NCBI RefSeq assembly: GCF_003334385.1
Contig: NZ_QOWN01000002.1
DNA length: 64,000 nucleotides
From: Escherichia coli
GTDB lineage: Bacteria; Pseudomonadota; Gammaproteobacteria; Enterobacterales; Enterobacteriaceae
Reading direction: 5' to 3' (one strand)
Below, piece after piece: positions 1 through 7,706 of the stretch (positions within the stretch are counted from its first letter, which is position 1; each line of letters starts with the position of its first letter). Both the position numbers and the translations under genes were made by a program. The notes beneath the pieces were generated by a model that saw nothing but the letters and a program-made list of their open reading frames with translations, was not told the DNA's origin and ran no database searches.

Positions 1-1
1 G

Positions 2-1027
2 ACCAATAATTATCTCGGTTTAACCTTTAATCATGATGCCATCAGCGAAGGTCAGGCCGCGTTAGCGGCCCAAGGTACCGGCACCACCGGTTCTCGTATG
101 GCAAACGGCAGTTATGCGCCGCACCTGGCGTTAGAGAAAGAGATTGCCGAGTTTTTCAATCGCCCTACCGCTATCGTTTTTTCAACCGGTTATACCGCTA
201 ATTTAGGCGTCATCAGCGCACTTGCCGACCATAACGCCGTGGTGTTACTGGATGCCGACAGCCACGCCAGTATTTATGACGCCTGTTCTCTCGGTGGCGC
301 GGAAATTATTCGTTTCCGCCATAACGATGCTAAAGATCTGGAACGGCGCATGGTTCGCCTCGGTGAACGGGCGAAAGAGGCGATTATCATCGTTGAGGGT
401 ATCTACAGCATGCTCGGTGACGTTGCGCCGTTAGCGGAAATTGTTGATATCAAACGTCGTCTCGGTGGTTATTTGATTGTCGATGAAGCGCATTCGTTTG
501 GCGTGTTAGGCGCAACGGGGCGCGGACTGGCTGAAGCTGTCGGCGTTGAAGATGATGTGGATATTATCGTTGGCACCTTCAGTAAAAGTCTGGCCTCGAT
601 TGGCGGTTTTGCTGTCGGTTCGGAAGCGATGGAAGTGCTGCGCTACGGCAGCCGCCCGTATATTTTTACCGCCTCTCCTTCTCCGTCCTGCATTGCGACC
701 GTGCGCTCGTCGTTAAGAACTATTGCCACACAACCAGAGCTGCGGCAAAAGCTGATGGATAATGCCAACCATCTGTATGGCGGTCTGCAAAAACTGGGTT
801 ATGAGTTAAGTTCACATATTAGCCCGGTAGTGCCGGTAATAATCGGTTCGAAAGAGGACGGTTTACGCATCTGGCGCGAGCTTATTTCGCTGGGCGTTTA
901 TGTGAATCTTATCCTGCCACCTGCCGCGCCTGCAGGCATCACGCTGCTGCGCTGTAGCGTAAACGCTGCTCACAGTCGTGAGCAAATCGATGCCATCATT
1001 CAGGCATTTGCTACTCTGAAGCAGTAA
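2..1027 (+). CDS. alpha-oxoamine synthase family PLP enzyme (BioF/Kbl/serine-palmitoyltransferase-like); 5' end lies outside the window
   Basis: The frame is open from nt 2 (TNNYLGLTFNHD...GTTGSRMANGSY), so the ATG at 98 is internal. Family motifs present: NNYLGL, DEAHSFGVLG and GTFSKSLASIGGF (putative PLP-lysine codon 584-586). Stop at 1025-1027. Confidence 0.85.
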   Translation, partial: TNNYLGLTFNHDAISEGQAALAAQGTGTTGSRMANGSYAPHLALEKEIAEFFNRPTAIVFSTGYTANLGVISALADHNAVVLLDADSHASIYDACSLGGAEIIRFRHNDAKDLERRMVRLGERAKEAIIIVEGIYSMLGDVAPLAEIVDIKRRLGGYLIVDEAHSFGVLGATGRGLAEAVGVEDDVDIIVGTFSKSLASIGGFAVGSEAMEVLRYGSRPYIFTASPSPSCIATVRSSLRTIATQPELRQKLMDNANHLYGGLQKLGYELSSHISPVVPVIIGSKEDGLRIWRELISLGVYVNLILPPAAPAGITLLRCSVNAAHSREQIDAIIQAFATLKQ

Positions 1028-1033
1028 TGTGAG

Positions 1034-1060
1034 CCCGCCGTGGTGTTGCGCCACGGCGGG
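1034..1060. terminator. GC-rich hairpin between convergent genes
   Basis: cccgccgtgg (1034-1043) and ccacggcggg (1051-1060) form a perfect 10-bp stem followed by ttt. It sits between the stop codons at 1027 (+) and 1062 (-). Confidence 0.6.
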
Positions 1061-1061
1061 T

Positions 1062-2141
1062 TTAATGTTGTCTGTCATACCAATACACCAGGCTCAACGC
1101 CACCAGCACAAACGCTATCGGTAAACCGAGCGCGGTAACAGGTGCGCTCAACGCAAATAGCAATCCCAGATTGACCATGATTTGATAGCTGATCCAGGTG
1201 AGTAAGCCAACGATGACACCTACAGCGAGACGGCTACCCATCCCTGGCGAGCGCGGGGCGCTAAAGGTAAACGGCACAGCCAGCAAAATCATCGCCAGGG
1301 TCAGGATGGGTTGCCCCAGTTTTTCCCACAGTGCAAGGCGGTATTCGCTGCTGGGTTGCCCGGTTTCCTGCAAATAATGGATGTAATGATTAAGCTGACG
1401 GACAGAAAAAGTATTGCCCGGCATTGATAACTCTTCAAGATCCATACTGGTGAAGGCCGATTGCCAGGCAAGATTATCTAATGTTTCCAGCGTTTCTTTG
1501 CCATTCAGCCATTTTTTATGATTCACACCATGCAGGATCCACGTTTTGTCGTCTTCAATGGTGGCACTGCGTGCATAAATGTAGGATTCGAGCGAGAGAT
1601 CGTCGCGATAATGAAAAATCTCCACGCCCACCGGCTGGCCCTGCTCGTTCAGCGATTTCACCGTCACAAATTCATTACCACGCCTGGCCCACAGCATATT
1701 GCCGGTAATGTCATCGTCCTCCCCCAACGCGGTGGCGGTCGATTTGATTTGCAACGCCTGTTGCTGTAATGGCGACGCTACCCACTCATCTATCGCGCCT
1801 AACGAAACAGTCCACAATATCCCTGCAACCAGCGCCACCAGTGCAATACGGAAGATAGAAAACCCCATGCTGCGAATGGCGGTAAGCTCACTGTTTTTCG
1901 ATAACTGCCCCAGGCCGACAATCCCTCCCAATAAGGCGATAAATGGCGAAAGTTCGACCAGTGTGCGCGGTAAGGTCATTAGCACCACCAGCACCGCCTG
2001 AGTCCAGCGATAACCGCCCGGGCTGACATCATCCAGTTCGTTAATCAGGTTGAAGGTGGTAAAAAGCGGCAGCAATAGCCCTGCGGCGGCGGCAAAACCG
2101 AGAAAGAGATGACGGATTAAATAGCGGCTGAAAACATTCAT
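1062..2141 (-). CDS. LptG-like permease (YjgP/YjgQ family), accessory paralogue
   Basis: ORF 1062..2222. The internal ATG at 2141 gives MNVFSRYLIRHLFLGF..., a typical YjgP/YjgQ N-terminus, and makes an ATGA start/stop overlap with the upstream gene (2138-2141). Multiple hydrophobic segments flank a central soluble domain (WARRGNEFVTVKSL...WILHGV). Confidence 0.8.
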   Translation of the reverse strand: MNVFSRYLIRHLFLGFAAAAGLLLPLFTTFNLINELDDVSPGGYRWTQAVLVVLMTLPRTLVELSPFIALLGGIVGLGQLSKNSELTAIRSMGFSIFRIALVALVAGILWTVSLGAIDEWVASPLQQQALQIKSTATALGEDDDITGNMLWARRGNEFVTVKSLNEQGQPVGVEIFHYRDDLSLESYIYARSATIEDDKTWILHGVNHKKWLNGKETLETLDNLAWQSAFTSMDLEELSMPGNTFSVRQLNHYIHYLQETGQPSSEYRLALWEKLGQPILTLAMILLAVPFTFSAPRSPGMGSRLAVGVIVGLLTWISYQIMVNLGLLFALSAPVTALGLPIAFVLVALSLVYWYDRQH

Positions 2142-3208
2142 CGGGAAAATTTCTGCAGCAAAGAGAAGTCGCGTGCGACCAGCATCAGCAGGCCCATTAG
2201 CATGAGTCCGGGTACTAACCACAAACCAGGAATGAGGGGAATCGCGCCGTTAGCCACCAGCGTACGGCAGACGTCACCGCCATAAAAAATGGCAATAAAC
2301 AGCAACGTCAGTGGCAATAACGTTGAAAATCGCCCTTGCCGCGGTTTTACCCGACTTAATGAAATGGCCAGCAGCGCCATCAACAATGCGGTCAGGCCAC
2401 GGCTTTGCCGCCATTGCAGTTCGGCATGATCGGCTGGAAAGACGGAGCGCGCCAGCTCCGTGACCGATTTCGCTTTGCGTTTGACGTTAGGGCTTTGATC
2501 CAGCGGATTCAGATGTAATTGCAGATTACGGTAGATCTGTTCGTTGTCATCACGCCCCTGATGATCGATAAGATAGGCAGTGCCGTTGTGCAACATAACG
2601 GTCGGTTTCTCGGGTGATGGGTCAACCACATCAACCGAACGGGCGCGGAAAATGCGGGTTCGATTGGCAGTAGAAGTATAAATCAGCGCGTCAGTCAGGC
2701 GATTATTATCCTGATCAACCGTCTGCGAAAGGATCATTCGTCCGTTATCGTTAGTGTTAAATTTCTTTGCCCGCAACTGGCGAACATCCAGCTCCGACTG
2801 CGACTGCTGCTCCAGTTGATAAATCTGCGCATAAGCCCACGGACGACCATACATCGACAGAAGGGTGACAAAAATACTTAGCGGTATCGCCAGATAAAGA
2901 ACGGCTTTGTACAAGCGTCCCGGACTGCCCCCCGCCGCAGAGATAGCGGTAATTTCCGAGTCGGTATACATCTGCCCTAGCGTCACGCCAACTGACACAT
3001 ACAGACCAACAGGTAACAACATCTCCAGTGCAATCAGTACTTTGTAGAAAACGATATCCAGCACAACATCAAGAGCTAATGTCCCATTTGCCGCTTCGGT
3101 CAGATAACGCTGTGCGGAGTAGCTGGCGAAAATAAAGATCAGAAAACCGACGATAATCAGCACCAGACGGCGCGTACCACGCATGATGTAGTGTTCAACC
3201 AGCTTCAT
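2138..3208 (-). CDS. LptF-like permease (YjgP/YjgQ family), accessory paralogue
   Basis: 356-aa ORF with ATG at 3206-3208. The N-terminus MKLVEHYIMRGTRRLVLIIVGFLIFIF and the topology (3 TM, soluble domain, 3 TM) resemble LptF/LptG. It is translationally coupled to the next gene. Confidence 0.8.
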   Translation of the reverse strand: MKLVEHYIMRGTRRLVLIIVGFLIFIFASYSAQRYLTEAANGTLALDVVLDIVFYKVLIALEMLLPVGLYVSVGVTLGQMYTDSEITAISAAGGSPGRLYKAVLYLAIPLSIFVTLLSMYGRPWAYAQIYQLEQQSQSELDVRQLRAKKFNTNDNGRMILSQTVDQDNNRLTDALIYTSTANRTRIFRARSVDVVDPSPEKPTVMLHNGTAYLIDHQGRDDNEQIYRNLQLHLNPLDQSPNVKRKAKSVTELARSVFPADHAELQWRQSRGLTALLMALLAISLSRVKPRQGRFSTLLPLTLLFIAIFYGGDVCRTLVANGAIPLIPGLWLVPGLMLMGLLMLVARDFSLLQKFSR

Positions 3209-3238
3209 CTCACTAACGCCCTCAATCCTTTGAGTTTT

Positions 3239-3802
3239 TTATTCATTGATCAGTTTCTGCGCCAACGCAATGACATGATCTACCTCTTCCGGCGTCAGGC
3301 TGCCGTCCTTTGCCCACTGAATTTGCCCGGCTTTATTCAGCACCAGAATGGTTGAACTCTGCTCCGGCAAGCGCCAGGCAACGCGTCCCTGTCCATTGCC
3401 GTCAATAACGAATTGCGCCCACGGATAGCGGCGTTTATTTTTTTCGATTTTGCCAACAACAAAATAGCCAGTACCAAAGATGGCATCATCGGTGTTCACA
3501 ATGGTGGTGGGCTGAAAACGATCCTGCGGAAAGTTTGCCGCTTCAACCGCTTTAATTAACAGTGAGTTCTTTTTCTTCGCCGACTTACGCCCGGCGATAT
3601 ACTGAATAATGCGGACTTTTCCCGCTAATTGTGTGCTGTTCCACTTTTGGTAGTGAATTTCGTCGTCGCTATTCAGAAGCAGCTCGCCGCCTTCCTGGAT
3701 ATAAACAGGGGTAACCGTTTTGCCAGTGACGAAATTGTGTGCCTGCACACCCGGGGCTAAGAGCATGATAATCAACGCAATAATCAAACGAGATGACATC
3801 AT
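3239..3802 (-). CDS. YtfJ/HI0045-family periplasmic protein (signal peptide)
   Basis: 187-aa ORF. The N-terminal signal-like sequence is MMSSRLIIALIIMLLAPGVQA-HN. A GGAG Shine-Dalgarno lies upstream of the ATGATG start. Similarity to E. coli YtfJ is recognised by eye, not by search. Confidence 0.65.
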   Translation of the reverse strand: MMSSRLIIALIIMLLAPGVQAHNFVTGKTVTPVYIQEGGELLLNSDDEIHYQKWNSTQLAGKVRIIQYIAGRKSAKKKNSLLIKAVEAANFPQDRFQPTTIVNTDDAIFGTGYFVVGKIEKNKRRYPWAQFVIDGNGQGRVAWRLPEQSSTILVLNKAGQIQWAKDGSLTPEEVDHVIALAQKLINE

Positions 3803-3810
3803 TGCTCCGG

Positions 3811-4635
3811 CTATAGCGGAAAACGCGAAATCAGCAGCTCTAAGCGCTGACGAATATCGCTATCCAGCGCCACCGGTGCATCATACGACTGGCGGTTTTC
3901 CATATCATCCGCCACCATGTCGTCGTGTTTATCTCCCATCAGGCCATTAATGGCGGCGAGGAAGCGGGATATCTGTAACGCCTCTTTATTTTCAGGATCA
4001 AGCGATCTTAAGGTGTCGTAATAAGAAACCTGCTGGCTGATGATTTTTCGCACATCATGAAATTCCCTACCGGTTAGTCGCGGTTTGGCAATAATCTCTT
4101 TCAGGGTATGCATTTGCTTTTGCCGATAGGCAATAAAACTGCTTACGCTTTCTAACTGGCTATGGCGTAATGAATAGTTCACCAACGACCAGACCGGAGA
4201 GCTTAAATAAATCCGTAACAGGTTGCCGTAATACGACACAATATTTTTCTTACCGTTACGAAAGCCGTCCTGAAAACGCCCCAGAAAAACGGTCGTTTTG
4301 CCGAATAAAAATCCGGCCTGATGCTTCTTTAAATACAGCCGTTGCGCAAAACGCAGGTGCTTGTAGCGCGCTCGCATGTATTTAAATTGTTTGCGCTCAT
4401 CAGCAGTCAGCTCATCGCCTTTGGCTTGTTTGCGAACTAAACGCAGTAACTCCTGACGATCAACGCCATTGAGCCAGAATTGCAGGCATAACGCGTAATT
4501 ATCATGAATGATTTCGGTGGTACAACTTAGTGCAATAGTCGGCGGCAAACTAACCTGTGCATCAACGACATCATCTTCTTCAATCGCAACAAATAGACGC
4601 TCGCTCGCCTCAAGCGGGAAATATTTTCTCATCAT
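3811..4635 (-). CDS. hypothetical cytoplasmic protein (274 aa), no family recognised
   Basis: Long ORF in an operon context. Its ATG overlaps the yghQ stop by 1 nt (TGATGATG at about 4630-4637). No TM segment or signal peptide is visible. Confidence 0.7.
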   Translation of the reverse strand: MMRKYFPLEASERLFVAIEEDDVVDAQVSLPPTIALSCTTEIIHDNYALCLQFWLNGVDRQELLRLVRKQAKGDELTADERKQFKYMRARYKHLRFAQRLYLKKHQAGFLFGKTTVFLGRFQDGFRNGKKNIVSYYGNLLRIYLSSPVWSLVNYSLRHSQLESVSSFIAYRQKQMHTLKEIIAKPRLTGREFHDVRKIISQQVSYYDTLRSLDPENKEALQISRFLAAINGLMGDKHDDMVADDMENRQSYDAPVALDSDIRQRLELLISRFPL

Positions 4636-5984
4636 CAGGATTTCTCTCCGGCTGCGTTATAAAGCAAGGAATGGCGCTGAAAAAATGCCTTTAAGGTTGG
4701 AATTAACGAGAGCGCCACGTCCAGACATTGCCCACCGAAGTAAGCAAACGCTGCTCCCAGCACACCAAACAGATGACAGAACATGAACAGCAATACGATG
4801 TAGCCGATTGAGGCGATGGTTTGCGCCACGAGAAAAGCGCGCTGTTTTCCCGCCATCAATAGCAATGACTCCTGAGGGAAGCCCAGCATCGAAATCACAA
4901 TTGCGCCCAGCATCACCTGAATCAGGTCATACGCTTCGAGATACTTAACGCCAAACACCAGCGAAATGAGCGGCTTGCCGACGATCAACACCGCGAGCGC
5001 CACCAGAATACCGATTCCGCCCGCCAGTAAACCGGACTTCACACCTAACAACCACGGTCTGGTGGTGCGCGGATCTAAACGCATCACCTCTGGGTAAAAA
5101 CTTTTACCCAGCAAACCCGCTGGCGTTCCGGCGGCGTCGAAGAATGTCATGGCGATTTTAAATAACCCGGCGGCAGCGGGTCCTAACACGATCCCCACCA
5201 ACACTGTGCTGCACGAGTTACGCGCCGACCAGATGGAGTGGGCAATGTTGGTTGACCAGACAAAACTCCACGCGCCTTTAATGTATCGGGCAGACTCAAA
5301 CAGATTCAATTTGAAGGCGTTATGGATATTTCGGCGGCGTAATTCGCGCGCGGCAAACCACCAGTACATGGTGCCGCCAACCAGATTCGACACGTACCAG
5401 GCAATAACAAAACCCGCAAAACCAAAGTCAAAATACCAGGCTACGACGCTCCCCGCTGCGCGCAGAAAAGGTTTCGTCGCCTGCTGTACAGCAATTAAAT
5501 CGAAGCGATCTACCGCACGCAGAATGCCGGTCGGCGTGGAGGAAGCCATTGAAGGAATGAGCGTGCAATAGAGCGCTGCCAGCCAAAAACTTTGGTCATC
5601 CAGACCTAATGAATGGGAAAGGAATGGCAGTAAGGCAATGCCACCGACAATCGCCACCGCGCCGCTGACGATATCCAGCGAGAAGGAAAATGAGACGACA
5701 TTGCGGAATTGCTGCGGATTATTGTTGGTTAATGCTGGTGTTCCGTACTGAACCACCAGTTGCCATGTCTGAAACTTAATAAAATCGCTGATCGACTTGG
5801 CGTACGATTGCACAATCACCAGTACGCCAAACATGGCGGGCGTCATCCCTTTACCGGCACACGAGAGCGCCAACAGACCCAGCAAGGCGCTCACGACATT
5901 ACTGGAGCCTAACCAGGCGCTATTGCGAATAATGGTGCGAAACGCGCCATCTGCAAACCAATGTTTGATGTTAAAACCCGCCAA
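4635..5984 (-). CDS. yghQ: inner-membrane MOP/PST-type (Wzx-like) flippase family protein YghQ, full length
   Basis: 449-aa polytopic membrane ORF whose C-terminal part I recognise as K-12 YghQ. The first codon at 5982-5984 is TTG, with AGG about 6 nt upstream. Confidence 0.8.
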   Translation of the reverse strand: MAGFNIKHWFADGAFRTIIRNSAWLGSSNVVSALLGLLALSCAGKGMTPAMFGVLVIVQSYAKSISDFIKFQTWQLVVQYGTPALTNNNPQQFRNVVSFSFSLDIVSGAVAIVGGIALLPFLSHSLGLDDQSFWLAALYCTLIPSMASSTPTGILRAVDRFDLIAVQQATKPFLRAAGSVVAWYFDFGFAGFVIAWYVSNLVGGTMYWWFAARELRRRNIHNAFKLNLFESARYIKGAWSFVWSTNIAHSIWSARNSCSTVLVGIVLGPAAAGLFKIAMTFFDAAGTPAGLLGKSFYPEVMRLDPRTTRPWLLGVKSGLLAGGIGILVALAVLIVGKPLISLVFGVKYLEAYDLIQVMLGAIVISMLGFPQESLLLMAGKQRAFLVAQTIASIGYIVLLFMFCHLFGVLGAAFAYFGGQCLDVALSLIPTLKAFFQRHSLLYNAAGEKS

Positions 5985-6029
5985 TTCAGCCTGACCTTAT
6001 CGTTGATAGTAAAAAGTATCCCGCCAGCC

Positions 6030-6788
6030 TTAAGTTAAACTTCGGCGGTCAGAAACGATGGCAACCAGAGAAACCGCCTTCTGTGCCTGTTCCAGCACTT
6101 CGCTGTAGGGCGCTCTGGAATCAATCTCAAGAATTTTTGTGCCGTTATAGCCAATCTTCGACATGACACCGATTTTGTCCTGCAGCTCGGCATAGTCATG
6201 GTCAGGCTTGCGGGAGATGGCAGTCTCAATATCAATGCCCAGGCGAATAATTAATTCCGGGCGATATTGCGCCATTTGTTGGTATAAACGCCGTTCGCGC
6301 TGCGCCAGAAACATGCTGATTTTCCCGGTCGCACGTTCGACGCCAATCCCCGGTCCATCATAATAAAAGCCCGAAATTTCAGCCTGCGGGAAGCGATCGC
6401 TGACCACCAGAACGCCACTTTGCGCCAGTCGCTGAACCTTGCGTAGATTCGCCATTCTTCGCAGCGAGAAGCAGTACATAATCACCGCCGCCCATAGCGC
6501 CGGAGATTTGGTTTTCATGCTTTGGGTTTTCGAGGATTTGGCCGCCAGTCGCCGTTCCAGCCAGACGCCAACCAACGGCAATCGTTTGATTTTGTCGCCG
6601 TCTTCGCCGGAGAGCAGCCCCAGATAGCGCCGCTCGGTTTGCCAGTGTTGTTGCAGCGATTTCACCAGGTCGGTGGTCAGTGTGGATTTACCGGTGCCAT
6701 CACACCCGACCACCGCAATCAGCCCCGGAATGTAGTTGGGCTGCGGCGCGGTTGTACTATTAACAGTTTGAGTTTGTAGTGCATCCAT
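6030..6788 (-). CDS. yghR: P-loop NTP-binding protein YghR
   Basis: 252 aa. Walker A VGCDGTGKSTL, then SDRFPQ and SRKPDH motifs. Paralogous to the next two genes. Confidence 0.9.
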   Translation of the reverse strand: MDALQTQTVNSTTAPQPNYIPGLIAVVGCDGTGKSTLTTDLVKSLQQHWQTERRYLGLLSGEDGDKIKRLPLVGVWLERRLAAKSSKTQSMKTKSPALWAAVIMYCFSLRRMANLRKVQRLAQSGVLVVSDRFPQAEISGFYYDGPGIGVERATGKISMFLAQRERRLYQQMAQYRPELIIRLGIDIETAISRKPDHDYAELQDKIGVMSKIGYNGTKILEIDSRAPYSEVLEQAQKAVSLVAIVSDRRSLT

Positions 6789-6819
6789 TCGTTAAATCAT
6801 CCCCTATCCATTTTGGTGA

Positions 6820-7533
6820 TCAGGAAAGCGCGGCGTGAATTGCGCGTAGTGACGCTTGCAGAATTTCATCGGCGGGGTGTCGCCCATCCAGTTCAAGGAT
6901 CTTTGCGCCATTGAATGTCAGTTGCGGCGTAACGGCGATTTTTTCCTGTAACGCTGCCAGTTGGTGGTCAGGTTTACGCGCAAACGCGGTTTGTTCATCA
7001 ATGCCAAGACGAATCAACAATACGGGCAAATAAGATGCCATCCATTGGTACAGCTTCAGCTCGCGCTGCCTTAACATTTTTATCCAACCGTTACCGCCCG
7101 TGGTTTTTGCCAATTGCGGGCCATCAAAGCGAAACCCCGGCACTTCAACCTGCGGGTAGCGGTCGGTGATGAGCAGAAAGCCTTGCTGGCTTTTACACAA
7201 CATTTTGCGAAACTTGTACGCCCGCCAGCAGGAAAGCAGATAGATAACCAGTGCAGTAATATTGCCAGGCGGTGTTGAGGGCTTTTCGTGCACATGTGCC
7301 GCTTTACTTCGCAGATAACGCCCAAAAGGTGCGCCAATAACAGGGAGCTGTGAAATCCATTCGCCAATTCGCCCGGACGATTGCCCGAGATAAATGTGTT
7401 CTGTTGGCATTCTTGCTGCCAGTTCATTTACCAGGCTTGCCGTGAGGGTCGATTTACCTGAACCATCACATCCTACAATGGCAATAACACGCACTGGCGT
7501 GGAATTAATTATTGACATATTACGTTGATTCAC
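6820..7533 (-). CDS. yghS: P-loop NTP-binding protein YghS
   Basis: 237 aa with a GTG start at 7531-7533. Walker A VGCDGSGKSTL, then TDRYPQ and ARKPDH motifs. Confidence 0.9.
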   Translation of the reverse strand: MNQRNMSIINSTPVRVIAIVGCDGSGKSTLTASLVNELAARMPTEHIYLGQSSGRIGEWISQLPVIGAPFGRYLRSKAAHVHEKPSTPPGNITALVIYLLSCWRAYKFRKMLCKSQQGFLLITDRYPQVEVPGFRFDGPQLAKTTGGNGWIKMLRQRELKLYQWMASYLPVLLIRLGIDEQTAFARKPDHQLAALQEKIAVTPQLTFNGAKILELDGRHPADEILQASLRAIHAALS

Positions 7534-7706
7534 GAAAAACCCGGCAGTAAATAATGTATTGAATATTACGTGGTCCGTGCTCAGAATATCCGTTCAACCT
7601 TATTGTGACAATGGTTAATTGTGACATTGACCTGAATTACGCTTTCATAAAAACATATTAACCAAATAAATATTTTTAATGGATATTTAAATTAAAGGAT
7701 ATATTC

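What the first reader, a model, noticed from the sequence alone, without database searches (positions are those of the whole stretch)
3239..4635. YtfJ-like periplasmic protein and a 274-aa family-less protein embedded between the permeases and the flippase
ORF 3239-3802 has a clear signal peptide and resembles the YtfJ/HI0045 family, whose function is unknown. ORF 3811-4635 has no TM segment, no signal peptide and no motif I can assign, yet its start overlaps the yghQ stop (TGATG), which implies stoichiometric co-expression. A periplasmic partner next to LptFG-like permeases could play an LptC/LptA-like bridging or cargo-binding role. The orphan could be a modifying enzyme. Both roles are speculative.
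Basis: inference. Interest (0 to 1): 0.5.

Follow-up and report, generated by a model that had tools for sequence, protein, structure and literature searches.

The report
CHAD-like and YtfJ-like sphingolipid-locus proteins
The two uncharacterised genes sit in the sphingolipid gene cluster that most E. coli strains carry and K-12 has lost: the "family-less" one is a diverged relative of the polyphosphate-binding CHAD domain that always travels with the cluster's lipid flippase, and the other is a cysteine-free, thioredoxin-shaped periplasmic protein found only in the enterobacterial version of the cluster.

Summary
Both ORFs are real. They lie on the minus strand and are 100% identical to E. 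coli CFT073. They belong to a seven-gene operon, yghS-yghR-yghQ-ORF274-ytfJ2-lptF2-lptG2, that lies tail-to-tail with the ceramide genes aasR-cerR-acpR-spt.

ORF 3239-3802 is a true YtfJ-family protein. It has a signal peptide and is 54% identical to K-12 YtfJ. It has no cysteine, and a low-confidence model matches only thioredoxin-like folds, not the Lpt beta-jellyroll.

ORF 3811-4635 hits no Pfam or NCBIfam model. A confident model (pLDDT 92) matches CHAD polyphosphate-binding domains best. 25 of 83 family members hit Pfam CHAD. The family also keeps a twice-repeated basic-helix plus (L/M)GxxxD motif.

In 79 loci from five bacterial orders, ORF274 directly follows the flippase gene yghQ. The stop and start codons overlap or abut in 61 of 73 cases. 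Two or three dTMP-kinase-like paralogues (YghR/S/T) are almost always nearby, and every host lineage makes or encodes sphingolipids. YtfJ2 follows ORF274 only in Enterobacterales (56 of 58 loci there, 0 of 21 elsewhere).

Best reading: ORF274 is a cytoplasmic, phosphate-polyanion-binding accessory of a head-group and flipping module. YtfJ2 is a lineage-specific periplasmic add-on. The fold and synteny are shown; the biochemistry is inferred. I found no paper linking CHAD or YtfJ to sphingolipids.

The parts
98..1027 (+). 3' part of spt (serine palmitoyltransferase), the last gene of aasR-cerR-acpR-spt; its 5' end lies before the window
   Evidence: NCBIfam NF047599 serine palmitoyltransferase, E 6e-147. 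RefSeq annotates spt in CFT073. The E. coli BL21 enzyme makes 3-oxosphinganine (PMC9386255).
1030..1064 (.). 16-bp GC-rich hairpin between the convergent stops of spt and lptG2; a likely bidirectional terminator
   Evidence: Terminator scan: stem of 16 pairs, 10 of them G-C. This is a consensus match only.
1062..2141 (-). lptG2, an LptG-like permease paralogue; the mechanical ORF extends to a GTG at 2222
   Evidence: TIGR04408, E 6e-92. The RefSeq start overlaps the lptF2 stop as ATGA.
2138..3208 (-). lptF2, an LptF-like permease paralogue
   Evidence: TIGR04407, E 4.6e-95. The Caulobacter homologues are required for sphingolipid export.
3239..3802 (-). ytfJ2: a periplasmic, cysteine-free YtfJ-family protein (RefSeq start at 3799). 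Signal peptide is residues 1-21, and the mature N-terminus is HNF. An invariant GRxSAKKKN loop sits where thioredoxins carry CxxC.
3811..4635 (-). ORF274: a cytoplasmic, basic, all-helical, diverged CHAD-fold protein. Conserved K85/R88/K92/R95 with LG119xxxD123, and H193/R196/K197 with MG234xxxD238.
4635..5984 (-). yghQ, a MOP/Wzx-type flippase; its stop overlaps the ORF274 start
   Evidence: PF01943, E 7e-11. TGATG junction. Truncated by IS5 in K-12.
6030..6788 (-). yghR, a dTMP-kinase-superfamily P-loop protein
   Evidence: TIGR00041, E 7.5e-8, below cutoff. The family profile hits thymidylate kinases best in the PDB. Walker A, DRYPQ and RKPDH motifs are invariant.
6820..7533 (-). yghS, a paralogue of yghR and probably the first gene of the operon
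7583..7611 (-). sigma-70-like promoter match upstream of yghS, in the yghS/yghT divergent intergenic region
   Evidence: 9 of 12 matches. The number of such sites in the region is no higher than in shuffles, so this is weak evidence.
7707..8399 (+). yghT, the third dTMP-kinase-like paralogue, transcribed divergently
   Evidence: best PDB hits are thymidylate kinases, E 8e-6.

Best explanation
The two ORFs are parts of the E. coli-type sphingolipid locus.

ORF274 is a cytoplasmic, diverged CHAD-fold protein. It is made in step with the Wzx-like flippase YghQ through overlapping stop and start codons. Together with the dTMP-kinase-like paralogues YghR/S/T it forms a conserved head-group and flipping module. 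This module replaces the Caulobacter cpg head-group genes.

Its most likely job is to bind a phosphate-rich anionic ligand. That ligand could be the phosphorylated lipid head group or a phosphoanhydride donor. Binding would use the two conserved basic CHAD-type helices, and the protein would present or retain the ligand at the cytoplasmic face of the flippase.

YtfJ2 is an Enterobacterales-specific periplasmic paralogue of the housekeeping YtfJ. It has a cysteine-free thioredoxin-like fold, with a basic GRxSAKKKN loop where thioredoxins carry CxxC. It most likely binds or handles the same anionic head group after flipping, before or alongside extraction by LptF2G2-LptB.

Shown: gene identity, fold similarity, motif conservation and synteny. 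Inferred: ligand, partners and the order of steps.
For: Context:
- spt, aasR, cerR, acpR and yghO flank the operon.
- The E. coli AasR/AcpR/Spt enzymes are active (PMC9386255).
- LptF2G2 with LptB is implicated in sphingolipid export.

CHAD fold of ORF274:
- pLDDT is 91.8.
- The Foldseek top hit is also CHAD.
- 25 of 83 family members hit Pfam CHAD, and no other family recurs. Some fused relatives pass the CHAD gathering score.
- Family-wide invariants are R88, D123, H193 and R196, with near-invariant K92, R95, K197, G119, G234 and D238.
- The N and C halves align in register, P = 0.0026.
- The i, i+3, i+7 basic spacing matches the SsCHAD residues H29/R32/R36 whose mutation abolishes polyP binding (PMC6537752).

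Coupling to the module:
- yghQ is directly upstream in 72 of 79 loci. Across the 73 measured junctions there are 41 overlaps of 4 nt, 14 overlaps of 1 nt and 6 gaps of 0 nt.
- This holds in Enterobacterales, Xanthomonadales, Sphingomonadales and Cernens, and also in Gluconobacter.
- YghR/S/T-like kinases are present in nearly all loci.
- The family is small, 288 representatives among 1.84 billion. Named members all come from sphingolipid-capable lineages.
- Precedent: CHAD genes sit beside dTMPK-like polyP kinases (PPK3 operon, PMC12995831) and beside ppk (PMC8003754).

YtfJ2.
Against: - The E. coli protein itself does not reach any Pfam CHAD score.
- A family profile finds no PDB sequence.
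- hhalign against YgiF finds nothing.
- Foldseek E-values are weak (best 0.049) and TM is about 0.5. The relationship is therefore distant, and ligand specificity may have changed.
- No electrostatic surface could be computed, and no binding data exist.
- YghR/S/T are not specifically closer to the PPK3 homologue 5h70/2plr (E 0.012-0.16) than to ordinary thymidylate kinases.
- I found no report of the lipid made by this locus in E. coli.
- The YtfJ2 model is low-confidence (pLDDT 48.5).
- The close paralogue YtfJ exists in K-12 and, from my own knowledge, in Haemophilus, which lack sphingolipid genes. YtfJ biochemistry is therefore not sphingolipid-specific.
- YtfJ2 is dispensable for the module outside Enterobacterales.
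Confidence: 0.5

Rival explanations
1. ORF274 is a ligand-free adaptor or regulator. It would assemble, stabilise or gate YghQ, or scaffold the YghR/S/T kinases. The CHAD-like shape would be an inherited helical scaffold that no longer binds phosphate.
For: Conserved translational coupling with yghQ implies a stoichiometric partnership. Similarity to CHAD is distant. A conserved acidic N-terminal segment (EEDDxVD...LP) could be a protein-docking element.
Against: The residues conserved across the whole family are exactly the basic and GxxxD positions of the CHAD repeat. These are the ligand-contact type of residue in CHAD, not a hydrophobic interface.
Confidence: 0.2
2. ORF274 is an enzyme. 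For example, a metal-dependent phosphotransferase or phosphohydrolase could use the conserved His and Asp residues (H105, D123, H193, H237, D238) to modify the head group.
For: His and Asp residues are invariant or nearly invariant. [quoted passage not shown] Relatives are fused to APH-type kinases and to a cytidylyltransferase.
Against: No CHAD protein has a demonstrated catalytic activity. Lorenzo-Orts et al. found the metal-binding histidines non-conserved and concluded that CHAD is a binding module. In the fusions the catalytic domain is the partner, which fits an accessory role.
Confidence: 0.12
3. YtfJ2 acts as an LptC/LptA-like periplasmic bridge or cargo carrier for LptF2G2.
For: It is periplasmic. 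It lies directly upstream of lptF2 in 38 of 56 enterobacterial loci. LptC2 is restricted to Caulobacter, and the periplasmic steps are unknown.
Confidence: 0.1
4. The two genes have nothing to do with sphingolipids. ORF274 would be a general polyphosphate-granule protein, YtfJ2 a redundant copy of YtfJ, and their position a historical accident.
For: pitB (a phosphate transporter) lies next to yghT. CHAD proteins are usually polyP-associated.
Against: The yghQ-ORF274 pair and the kinase paralogues travel together through five orders, and only in sphingolipid-capable lineages. In most loci spt/aasR/cerR/acpR lie within 10 kb. The codon overlap is conserved. pitB adjacency was not examined outside Escherichia.
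Confidence: 0.05

Closest known systems
CHAD domain (Pfam PF05235; structures 6QV5 Ricinus, 3E0S Chlorobium, 6RN5 PptA, 5A61 YgiF)
   Same: An all-helical fold of about 270-300 residues. The best structural matches cover 200-214 residues. The signature is duplicated: a basic helix (H/K-x-x-R-x-x-x-K/R) followed by (L/M)GxxxD. The protein is basic. The gene sits beside P-loop kinases of the dTMPK type, as in PPK3 operons.
   Different: The sequence is below every Pfam CHAD threshold, and TM is only about 0.5. It forms a separate small family. It is translationally coupled to a membrane flippase and embedded in a lipid-biosynthesis locus, not a ppk/ppx/TTM polyphosphate operon. The ligand is unknown.
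Caulobacter crescentus sphingolipid locus (CC_1152-CC_1168: cpgA-D, LptC2/F2/G2, flippase CC_1166)
   Same: The same ceramide core genes, a PF01943 flippase, and LptF2/LptG2 paralogues.
   Different: Caulobacter has no CHAD-like gene, no YtfJ-like gene and no dTMPK-like trio. E. coli has none of the cpg head-group genes, the HIT protein or LptC2. The head-group chemistry is therefore probably different.
YtfJ/HI0045 family (PF09695, TIGR01626), E. coli K-12 YtfJ (b4216)
   Same: Full-length member, above the curated cutoff. 54% identical to YtfJ, with the same signal peptide, AH(N/Q)F mature end and GRxSAKxKN loop.
   Different: It is a second copy, fixed downstream of yghQ-ORF274 in enterobacterial sphingolipid loci. 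The canonical gene stands alone between ytfI and ytfK. No member of the family has a known function.
Archaeal/bacterial PPK3 operon (ppx, sixA, catalytic plus regulatory dTMPK-like subunits, CHAD protein; PMC12995831)
   Same: Several dTMP-kinase-superfamily paralogues are encoded next to a CHAD-type protein.
   Different: There is no ppx or sixA. There are three paralogues, all with intact Walker A, DRx and lid motifs. No specific sequence affinity to the PPK3 structure 5H70/2PLR was found. The module is linked to a flippase and to ceramide genes.
LptC / LptA (OstA-like beta-jellyroll periplasmic Lpt components)
   Same: Periplasmic location and, in many loci, adjacency to LptF/G-type permease genes.
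   Different: No sequence match. The predicted alpha/beta thioredoxin-like topology differs from a beta-jellyroll.

Membership tests
CHAD domain (PF05235) | Scores above the Pfam gathering threshold (25.6 bits) | tested here: not met
   ORF274 gets no CHAD hit even at E <= 10. One of 20 close orthologues reaches E 0.0033. 25 of 83 wider family members hit at E <= 0.01, best 1.7e-8. Fused relatives reach 30.7-40.9 bits.
CHAD domain (PF05235) | Two four-helix bundles related by pseudo-twofold symmetry | tested here: met
CHAD domain (PF05235) | Conserved basic (His/Arg/Lys) residues on the motif helices that form the polyP-binding surface | tested here: inconclusive
   K85/R88/K92/R95 and H193/R196/K197 are conserved across the family. 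Their spacing matches the SsCHAD residues H29/R32/R36.
CHAD domain (PF05235) | Binds inorganic polyphosphate | not testable with these tools
   Needs purified protein (ITC or GCI, as in PMC6537752).
YtfJ/HI0045 family (PF09695 / TIGR01626) | Full-length match above the curated cutoffs | tested here: met
   Pfam 200.5 bits against a cutoff of 24. TIGR01626 212.1 bits against a cutoff of 151.1, covering 2-185 of 187 residues.
YtfJ/HI0045 family (PF09695 / TIGR01626) | Sec signal peptide, giving a periplasmic protein | tested here: met
   Hydrophobic residues 1-23, with VQA|HNF conserved in all 18 aligned orthologues and in K-12 YtfJ. Judged by sequence features only.
Thioredoxin-like redox enzymes (TlpA/ResA/Prx/SCO) | Thioredoxin-like fold | tested here: inconclusive
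Thioredoxin-like redox enzymes (TlpA/ResA/Prx/SCO) | Catalytic CxxC or peroxidatic Cys | tested here: not met
   Zero cysteines in the protein. The loop between beta3 and alpha1 is the invariant GRxSAKKKN.
LptC/LptA (OstA-like) | Beta-jellyroll fold or a match to the LptC/OstA models | tested here: not met
PPK3-type polyphosphate kinase module | dTMPK-like paralogues specifically related to cPPK3/rPPK3, with ppx in the operon | tested here: not met
   YghR/S/T profiles hit ordinary thymidylate kinases best (E 8e-6 to 5e-4). The PPK3 homologue 2plr/5h70 scores only E 0.012-0.16 or is absent. There is no ppx or sixA in the locus. The resemblance is architectural only.

The most novel reading that the evidence does not exclude
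The yghRST-yghQ-ORF274 module builds and exports a sphingolipid whose head group carries a phosphoanhydride chain, that is, a ceramide pyro-, tri- or oligophosphate: a lipid-anchored polyphosphate. The dTMPK-superfamily kinases, whose usual reaction adds a phosphate to an existing phosphate group, would extend the chain. The CHAD-like ORF274 would hold the chain and pass it to a Wzx-type flippase; from my own knowledge, this flippase class normally handles lipid-pyrophosphate-linked cargo. The basic-loop YtfJ2 would receive the head group in the periplasm. Most E. coli strains, though not K-12, would then be able to place a previously unknown polyanionic lipid in the outer membrane.
Probability: 0.12. 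Interest if true: 0.9.

Novelty: new variant of a known kind. Interest (0 to 1): 0.58.

Why it matters
About three quarters of complete E. coli genomes carry this locus (4115 of 5426). They include CFT073, BL21 and, according to the 2026 Klein-lab preprint, UTI89. K-12 lost it through an IS5-associated deletion, which probably explains why these genes are unstudied.

Work on bacterial sphingolipids has so far defined ceramide synthesis, the Caulobacter cpg head-group pathway and LptF2G2. The enterobacterial, xanthomonad and sphingomonad loci carry a different and uncharacterised head-group and flipping module.

Three findings give concrete, testable handles on what lipid E. coli makes and how it crosses the envelope:
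- A CHAD-type phosphate-polymer-binding fold is hard-wired to the flippase.
- dTMP-kinase-like paralogues accompany this pair.
- Enterobacteria add a dedicated periplasmic YtfJ paralogue.

The results also give the first functional context for the YtfJ family, and they extend CHAD biology from polyphosphate granules to membrane-lipid export.

Tried and rejected
1. A sequence-profile search of the PDB with the ORF274 family found no hit at E <= 10.
2. hhalign of the 83-member family against single-sequence E. coli YgiF, a short CHAD, gave probability 0.5%, which is uninformative.
3. The AF2 model of YtfJ2 from 18 close orthologues was poor (pLDDT 48.5). I used it only for fold class and flagged it.
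4. I tested for a specific relationship of YghR/S/T to PPK3. It is not supported; they look like generic diverged dTMP-kinase-superfamily proteins.
5. A PADLOC defence-system scan gave only P-loop noise.
6. Literature searches found nothing on the E. coli lipid product, on yghQ/R/S/T function, on YtfJ function, or on any CHAD-sphingolipid link.
7. I asked whether Caulobacter CC_1157 or CC_1167, called 'probably unrelated' in the paper, could be counterparts of the two ORFs. They are not: one is a HIT protein and the other is CDP-glycerol glycerophosphotransferase-like.
8. The contexts of the fused relatives P0234 and P0180 gave no clear sphingolipid link.
9. The promoter scan gave no more sites than in shuffled sequence, so the operon start is inferred from gene packing only.
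Full report
**Observation**

The window is E. coli DNA. Bases 1-6000 are 100% identical to CFT073 and other strains. Both reported ORFs are present on the minus strand at the stated coordinates. RefSeq annotates them in CFT073 as 'YtfJ family protein' and 'hypothetical protein'.

ORF 3239-3802 matches Pfam YtfJ_HI0045 (E 1.7e-59). It also matches TIGR01626 at 212 bits, against a cutoff of 151. Its only hydrophobic stretch is residues 1-23, ending in VQA|HNF. It has no cysteine, so it is a soluble Sec-exported protein and not a lipoprotein.

ORF 3811-4635 has no Pfam or NCBIfam hit, no hydrophobic segment (maximum 19-residue hydropathy 0.82), and a pI of 9.3.

The other junctions are also tight. 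There are 8 nt between ORF274 and ytfJ2 and 30 nt between ytfJ2 and lptF2. lptF2 and lptG2 overlap as ATGA at the RefSeq start. A 16-bp hairpin at 1030-1064 separates the convergent ends of lptG2 and spt. Gene packing therefore suggests a seven-gene operon, yghS-yghR-yghQ-ORF274-ytfJ2-lptF2-lptG2. The promoter evidence is weak.

The ORF at 98-1027 is the 3' part of spt, serine palmitoyltransferase (NF047599, E 6e-147). Just outside the window, CFT073 has yghO, a fatty acyl-AMP ligase, an NAD-dependent epimerase/dehydratase-family gene and an acyl carrier protein. These correspond to CerS, AasR, CerR and AcpR of the rhodobacterial ceramide pathway.

The E. coli BL21 AasR/AcpR/Spt trio has been shown to make 3-oxosphinganine (PMC9386255). 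In Caulobacter, LptF2/LptG2 paralogues in the sphingolipid locus form a complex and bind LptB. They can be deleted only when anionic sphingolipid synthesis is off (bioRxiv 10.64898/2026.04.12.717747).

That preprint draws the E. coli UTI89 locus but does not mention YtfJ or the 274-aa gene. It states that the periplasmic and outer-membrane steps are unknown.

The Caulobacter locus has no counterpart of either ORF. CC_1157 is a HIT protein, CC_1167 is CDP-glycerol glycerophosphotransferase-like, and CC_1166 is a PF01943 flippase like YghQ. Conversely, the E. coli locus has none of the cpg head-group genes.

K-12 MG1655 carries IS5 between yghO and a truncated yghQ. It lacks everything from aasR through ORF274. 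The two ORFs are present in 4115 of 5426 complete E. coli genomes.

**What ORF274 is**

Close homologues (59-100% identity) are all 'hypothetical' proteins of Enterobacterales. An exhaustive HMM search of 1.84 billion cluster representatives found only 288 relatives at E <= 0.001, so the family is small.

An AlphaFold2 model built on 20 orthologues is confident (pLDDT 91.8, pTM 0.88) and entirely helical, with 11 helices.

- Foldseek also ranks 6QV5 first (probability 1.00, TM 0.51), followed by YgiF and 3E0S. No Foldseek E-value is below 0.001, so the similarity is real but distant.

At the sequence level, 25 of 83 full-length family members hit Pfam CHAD at E <= 0.01, and no other family recurs. 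Several longer relatives pass the CHAD gathering score. UniRef already calls two members CHAD proteins.

Across the 83-member alignment the invariant residues are R88, D123, H193 and R196. Near-invariant are K92, R95, H105, G119, K197, N230, M233, G234, H237 and D238. They form a motif that occurs twice: a basic helix (FKYMRARYKHLRF, then FHDVRKII) followed by (L/M)GxxxD (LGRFQD, then MGDKHD). When the two halves are compared as profiles, they align in exactly this register (P = 0.0026).

This is the architecture described for CHAD: two pseudo-symmetric four-helix bundles with conserved basic residues that bind polyphosphate. Mutating H29/R32/R36/R69 in SsCHAD abolishes binding (PMC6537752). 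The i, i+3, i+7 spacing of K85/R88/K92 matches that pattern.

I therefore file ORF274 as a diverged CHAD-fold protein, not as a certified Pfam CHAD member. The protein itself fails the Pfam threshold. A family profile finds no PDB sequence, and hhalign against YgiF is blank.

**Who it travels with**

A scan of one genome per GTDB species returned 79 loci. I located the 13 E. coli cluster proteins in them by tblastn.

- yghQ lies directly upstream of ORF274 on the same strand in 72 loci.
- In one Luteibacter locus (L058) the second tandem copy follows yghQ, giving 73 measured junctions.
- In those 73 junctions the stop and start codons overlap by 4 nt (41 cases) or 1 nt (14 cases), or abut (6 cases).
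- The loci come from Enterobacterales (58), Xanthomonadales (12), Carnimonas/Cernens (4) and Sphingomonadales (5).
- spt/aasR/cerR/acpR lie within 10 kb in 69 loci. The Sphingomonadales exceptions are lineages whose sphingolipid genes are known to be scattered.
- YghR/S/T-like genes are nearly always present.
- In Sphingomonadales and Xanthomonadales, ORF274 is the last gene of the conserved block, followed by unrelated genes.
- A 31%-identical member in Gluconobacter wancherniae again follows a YghQ homologue (44% identity) and faces two YghRST-like genes.

The conserved core is therefore flippase, then the CHAD-like protein, plus two or three dTMP-kinase-like paralogues.

The three E. coli paralogues all keep Walker A, DR(Y/F)PQ and RKPDH motifs. 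Their profiles hit thymidylate kinases best in the PDB (E 8e-6 to 5e-4).

An operon with dTMPK-like paralogues next to a CHAD gene is the arrangement recently shown to encode the PPK3 polyphosphate kinase in Sulfolobus (PMC12995831). YghR/S/T show no specific affinity to the PPK3 structure, and there is no ppx. The resemblance is in gene arrangement only; I found no evidence of orthology.

Lone extra copies of ORF274 sit in lipid-related neighbourhoods:

- In Carnimonas, the copy sits beside a YghR-like kinase, an ArnT-like PMT_2 protein and a GT2 glycosyltransferase.
- In Pluralibacter, it sits near a hydroxylase of the Asp/Asn beta-hydroxylase family (from my own knowledge, the family that includes the lipid A hydroxylase LpxO).

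Some relatives are fused to APH/choline-kinase-type phosphotransferases or to a cytidylyltransferase.

**What YtfJ2 is**

It is 54% identical to K-12 YtfJ (b4216) over the whole length, so it is a paralogue of a core gene. Orthologues (58-86% identity) share several invariant features: the mature N-terminus AHNF, IAGRxSAKKKN, FQPTTIVNTDD, YPWAQF and WAKDG.

The loop between beta3 and alpha1, where thioredoxins carry CxxC, is the basic GRxSAKKKN. The protein has no cysteine, so a redox role is excluded. A cluster of lysines and arginine at a helix N-terminus is a plausible anion-binding site; this is inference. Nothing resembles LptC or LptA.

In synteny, YtfJ2 follows ORF274 in 56 of 58 enterobacterial loci. 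The two exceptions are lone ORF274 copies. It follows ORF274 in 0 of 21 loci elsewhere. lptF2 comes right after YtfJ2 in 38 of 56 loci. In the other 18, lptF2G2 is divergent or distant, yet YtfJ2 stays next to ORF274.

YtfJ2 is therefore a lineage-specific addition to the flippase/CHAD pair rather than a fixed partner of the permeases. No function is reported for the family.

**Most likely mechanism**

1. Ceramide is made by AasR/AcpR/Spt/CerR/YghO. This is shown in part for the E. coli enzymes; the rest rests on homology.
2. YghR/S/T phosphorylate the head group. This is inferred from their kinase-superfamily membership and their conserved linkage.
3. ORF274 binds the phosphate-rich product or donor through its CHAD-type basic helices at the cytoplasmic face of the flippase. 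It is made co-translationally with YghQ. The fold and motifs are shown; the ligand and the partnership are inferred.
4. YghQ flips the lipid across the inner membrane (inferred).
5. In Enterobacterales, periplasmic YtfJ2 handles the anionic head group (inferred, low confidence).
6. LptF2G2-LptB extract the lipid for the outer membrane (shown in Caulobacter).

I put about 0.85 on the CHAD-fold assignment. I put about 0.5 on the phosphate-polyanion-binding accessory role, and about 0.3 on any specific role for YtfJ2.

**Novelty**

No paper in the searchable library links CHAD to sphingolipids or YtfJ to any function. The preprint that draws the UTI89 locus does not mention YtfJ.

ORF274 is a new, context-shifted variant of a known fold family. 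YtfJ2 is a new, context-defined member of a known uncharacterised family.

The most novel reading not excluded is that this module makes a ceramide with a pyro- or oligophosphate head group, a lipid-anchored polyphosphate. I give that about 0.12.

Noticed in passing
L091 (NC_000913.3 3124000-3136000), compared with window 1-5984: In K-12 MG1655 an IS5 element (insH9) sits between yghO and a truncated 355-aa yghQ. The whole stretch aasR-cerR-acpR-spt-lptG2-lptF2-ytfJ2-ORF274, plus one end of yghQ, is missing. The standard laboratory strain therefore lacks the system.
   Followed up: yes
window 1030-1064: A 16-bp, GC-rich hairpin fills the 34-nt gap between the convergent stop codons of spt (+) and lptG2 (-). 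It looks like a shared bidirectional terminator.
   Followed up: partly
window 6030-8399 (yghR, yghS, yghT): The three paralogues are about 40-45% identical to one another. All keep Walker A, DR(Y/F)PQ and RKPDH motifs, and they resemble thymidylate kinases more than anything else in the PDB. The number of copies varies between lineages: two in Gluconobacter, three in most others. Their substrates are unknown.
   Followed up: partly
L074:5939-10822 (Carnimonas nigrificans) and L025:5946-10804 (Pluralibacter gergoviae): These are second, lone copies of the ORF274 family. In Carnimonas the copy follows a YghR-like kinase, an ArnT-like PMT_2 protein, an unknown 193-aa ORF and a GT2 glycosyltransferase. 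In Pluralibacter it lies near a hydroxylase of the Asp/Asn beta-hydroxylase family (the family that includes LpxO) and a BCCT transporter.
   Followed up: partly
P0234, P0238 (about 980 aa), P0257 (2531 aa), P0122 (564 aa); L054 and L058 (Luteibacter): There are fusion and duplication variants of the family: an APH/choline-kinase-like domain plus an ORF274-like domain plus a further CHAD domain; a giant protein with a cytidylyltransferase domain; and tandem duplicated copies, either as one 564-aa protein or as two adjacent genes in Luteibacter.
   Followed up: partly
window 3737-3748 (mature N-terminus of YtfJ2) and alignment A2: The first residue after the predicted signal-peptide cut is an invariant histidine (A|HNF; A|HQF in K-12 YtfJ). 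An N-terminal histidine conserved this strictly recalls the histidine-brace metal sites of some periplasmic copper proteins. I did not test this.
   Followed up: no
window 4518-4590 (ORF274 residues about 16-40): A conserved acidic stretch (AIEEDDVVD...SLPP; F15, A17, D21, D22, L30 and P31 are invariant among close orthologues, and P31 nearly so family-wide) precedes the CHAD-like core in an otherwise basic protein. It could be a docking or autoinhibitory element.
   Followed up: no
L041 (contig labelled Martelella alba BGMRC 2031): A genome labelled as an alphaproteobacterium carries a locus with Serratia-like gene order and 60-78% identity to the E. coli proteins. This suggests contamination or mis-binning of the assembly, or a recent transfer.
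   Followed up: no
window 1062-2222: The mechanical ORF for lptG2 starts at a GTG (386 aa) and would overlap lptF2 by 85 nt. RefSeq uses the ATG at 2141 (359 aa), which gives the usual ATGA stop/start overlap. The shorter form is more plausible.
   Followed up: partly
P0032 (280 aa): One database protein 85% identical to ORF274 is named 'type II secretion system protein GspM' and carries a PF04612 hit. This is probably a chimeric ORF or a mis-annotation.
   Followed up: no
L081 (K-12 ytfJ region): The canonical ytfJ lies about 3 kb from tamA/tamB and is separated from them by ytfK, paeA and msrA. The sphingolipid locus holds dedicated paralogues of housekeeping lipid machinery (LptF/G, ACP, acyl-ACP synthetase). 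By analogy the canonical YtfJ may also act in envelope-lipid biology; this is speculation.
   Followed up: no
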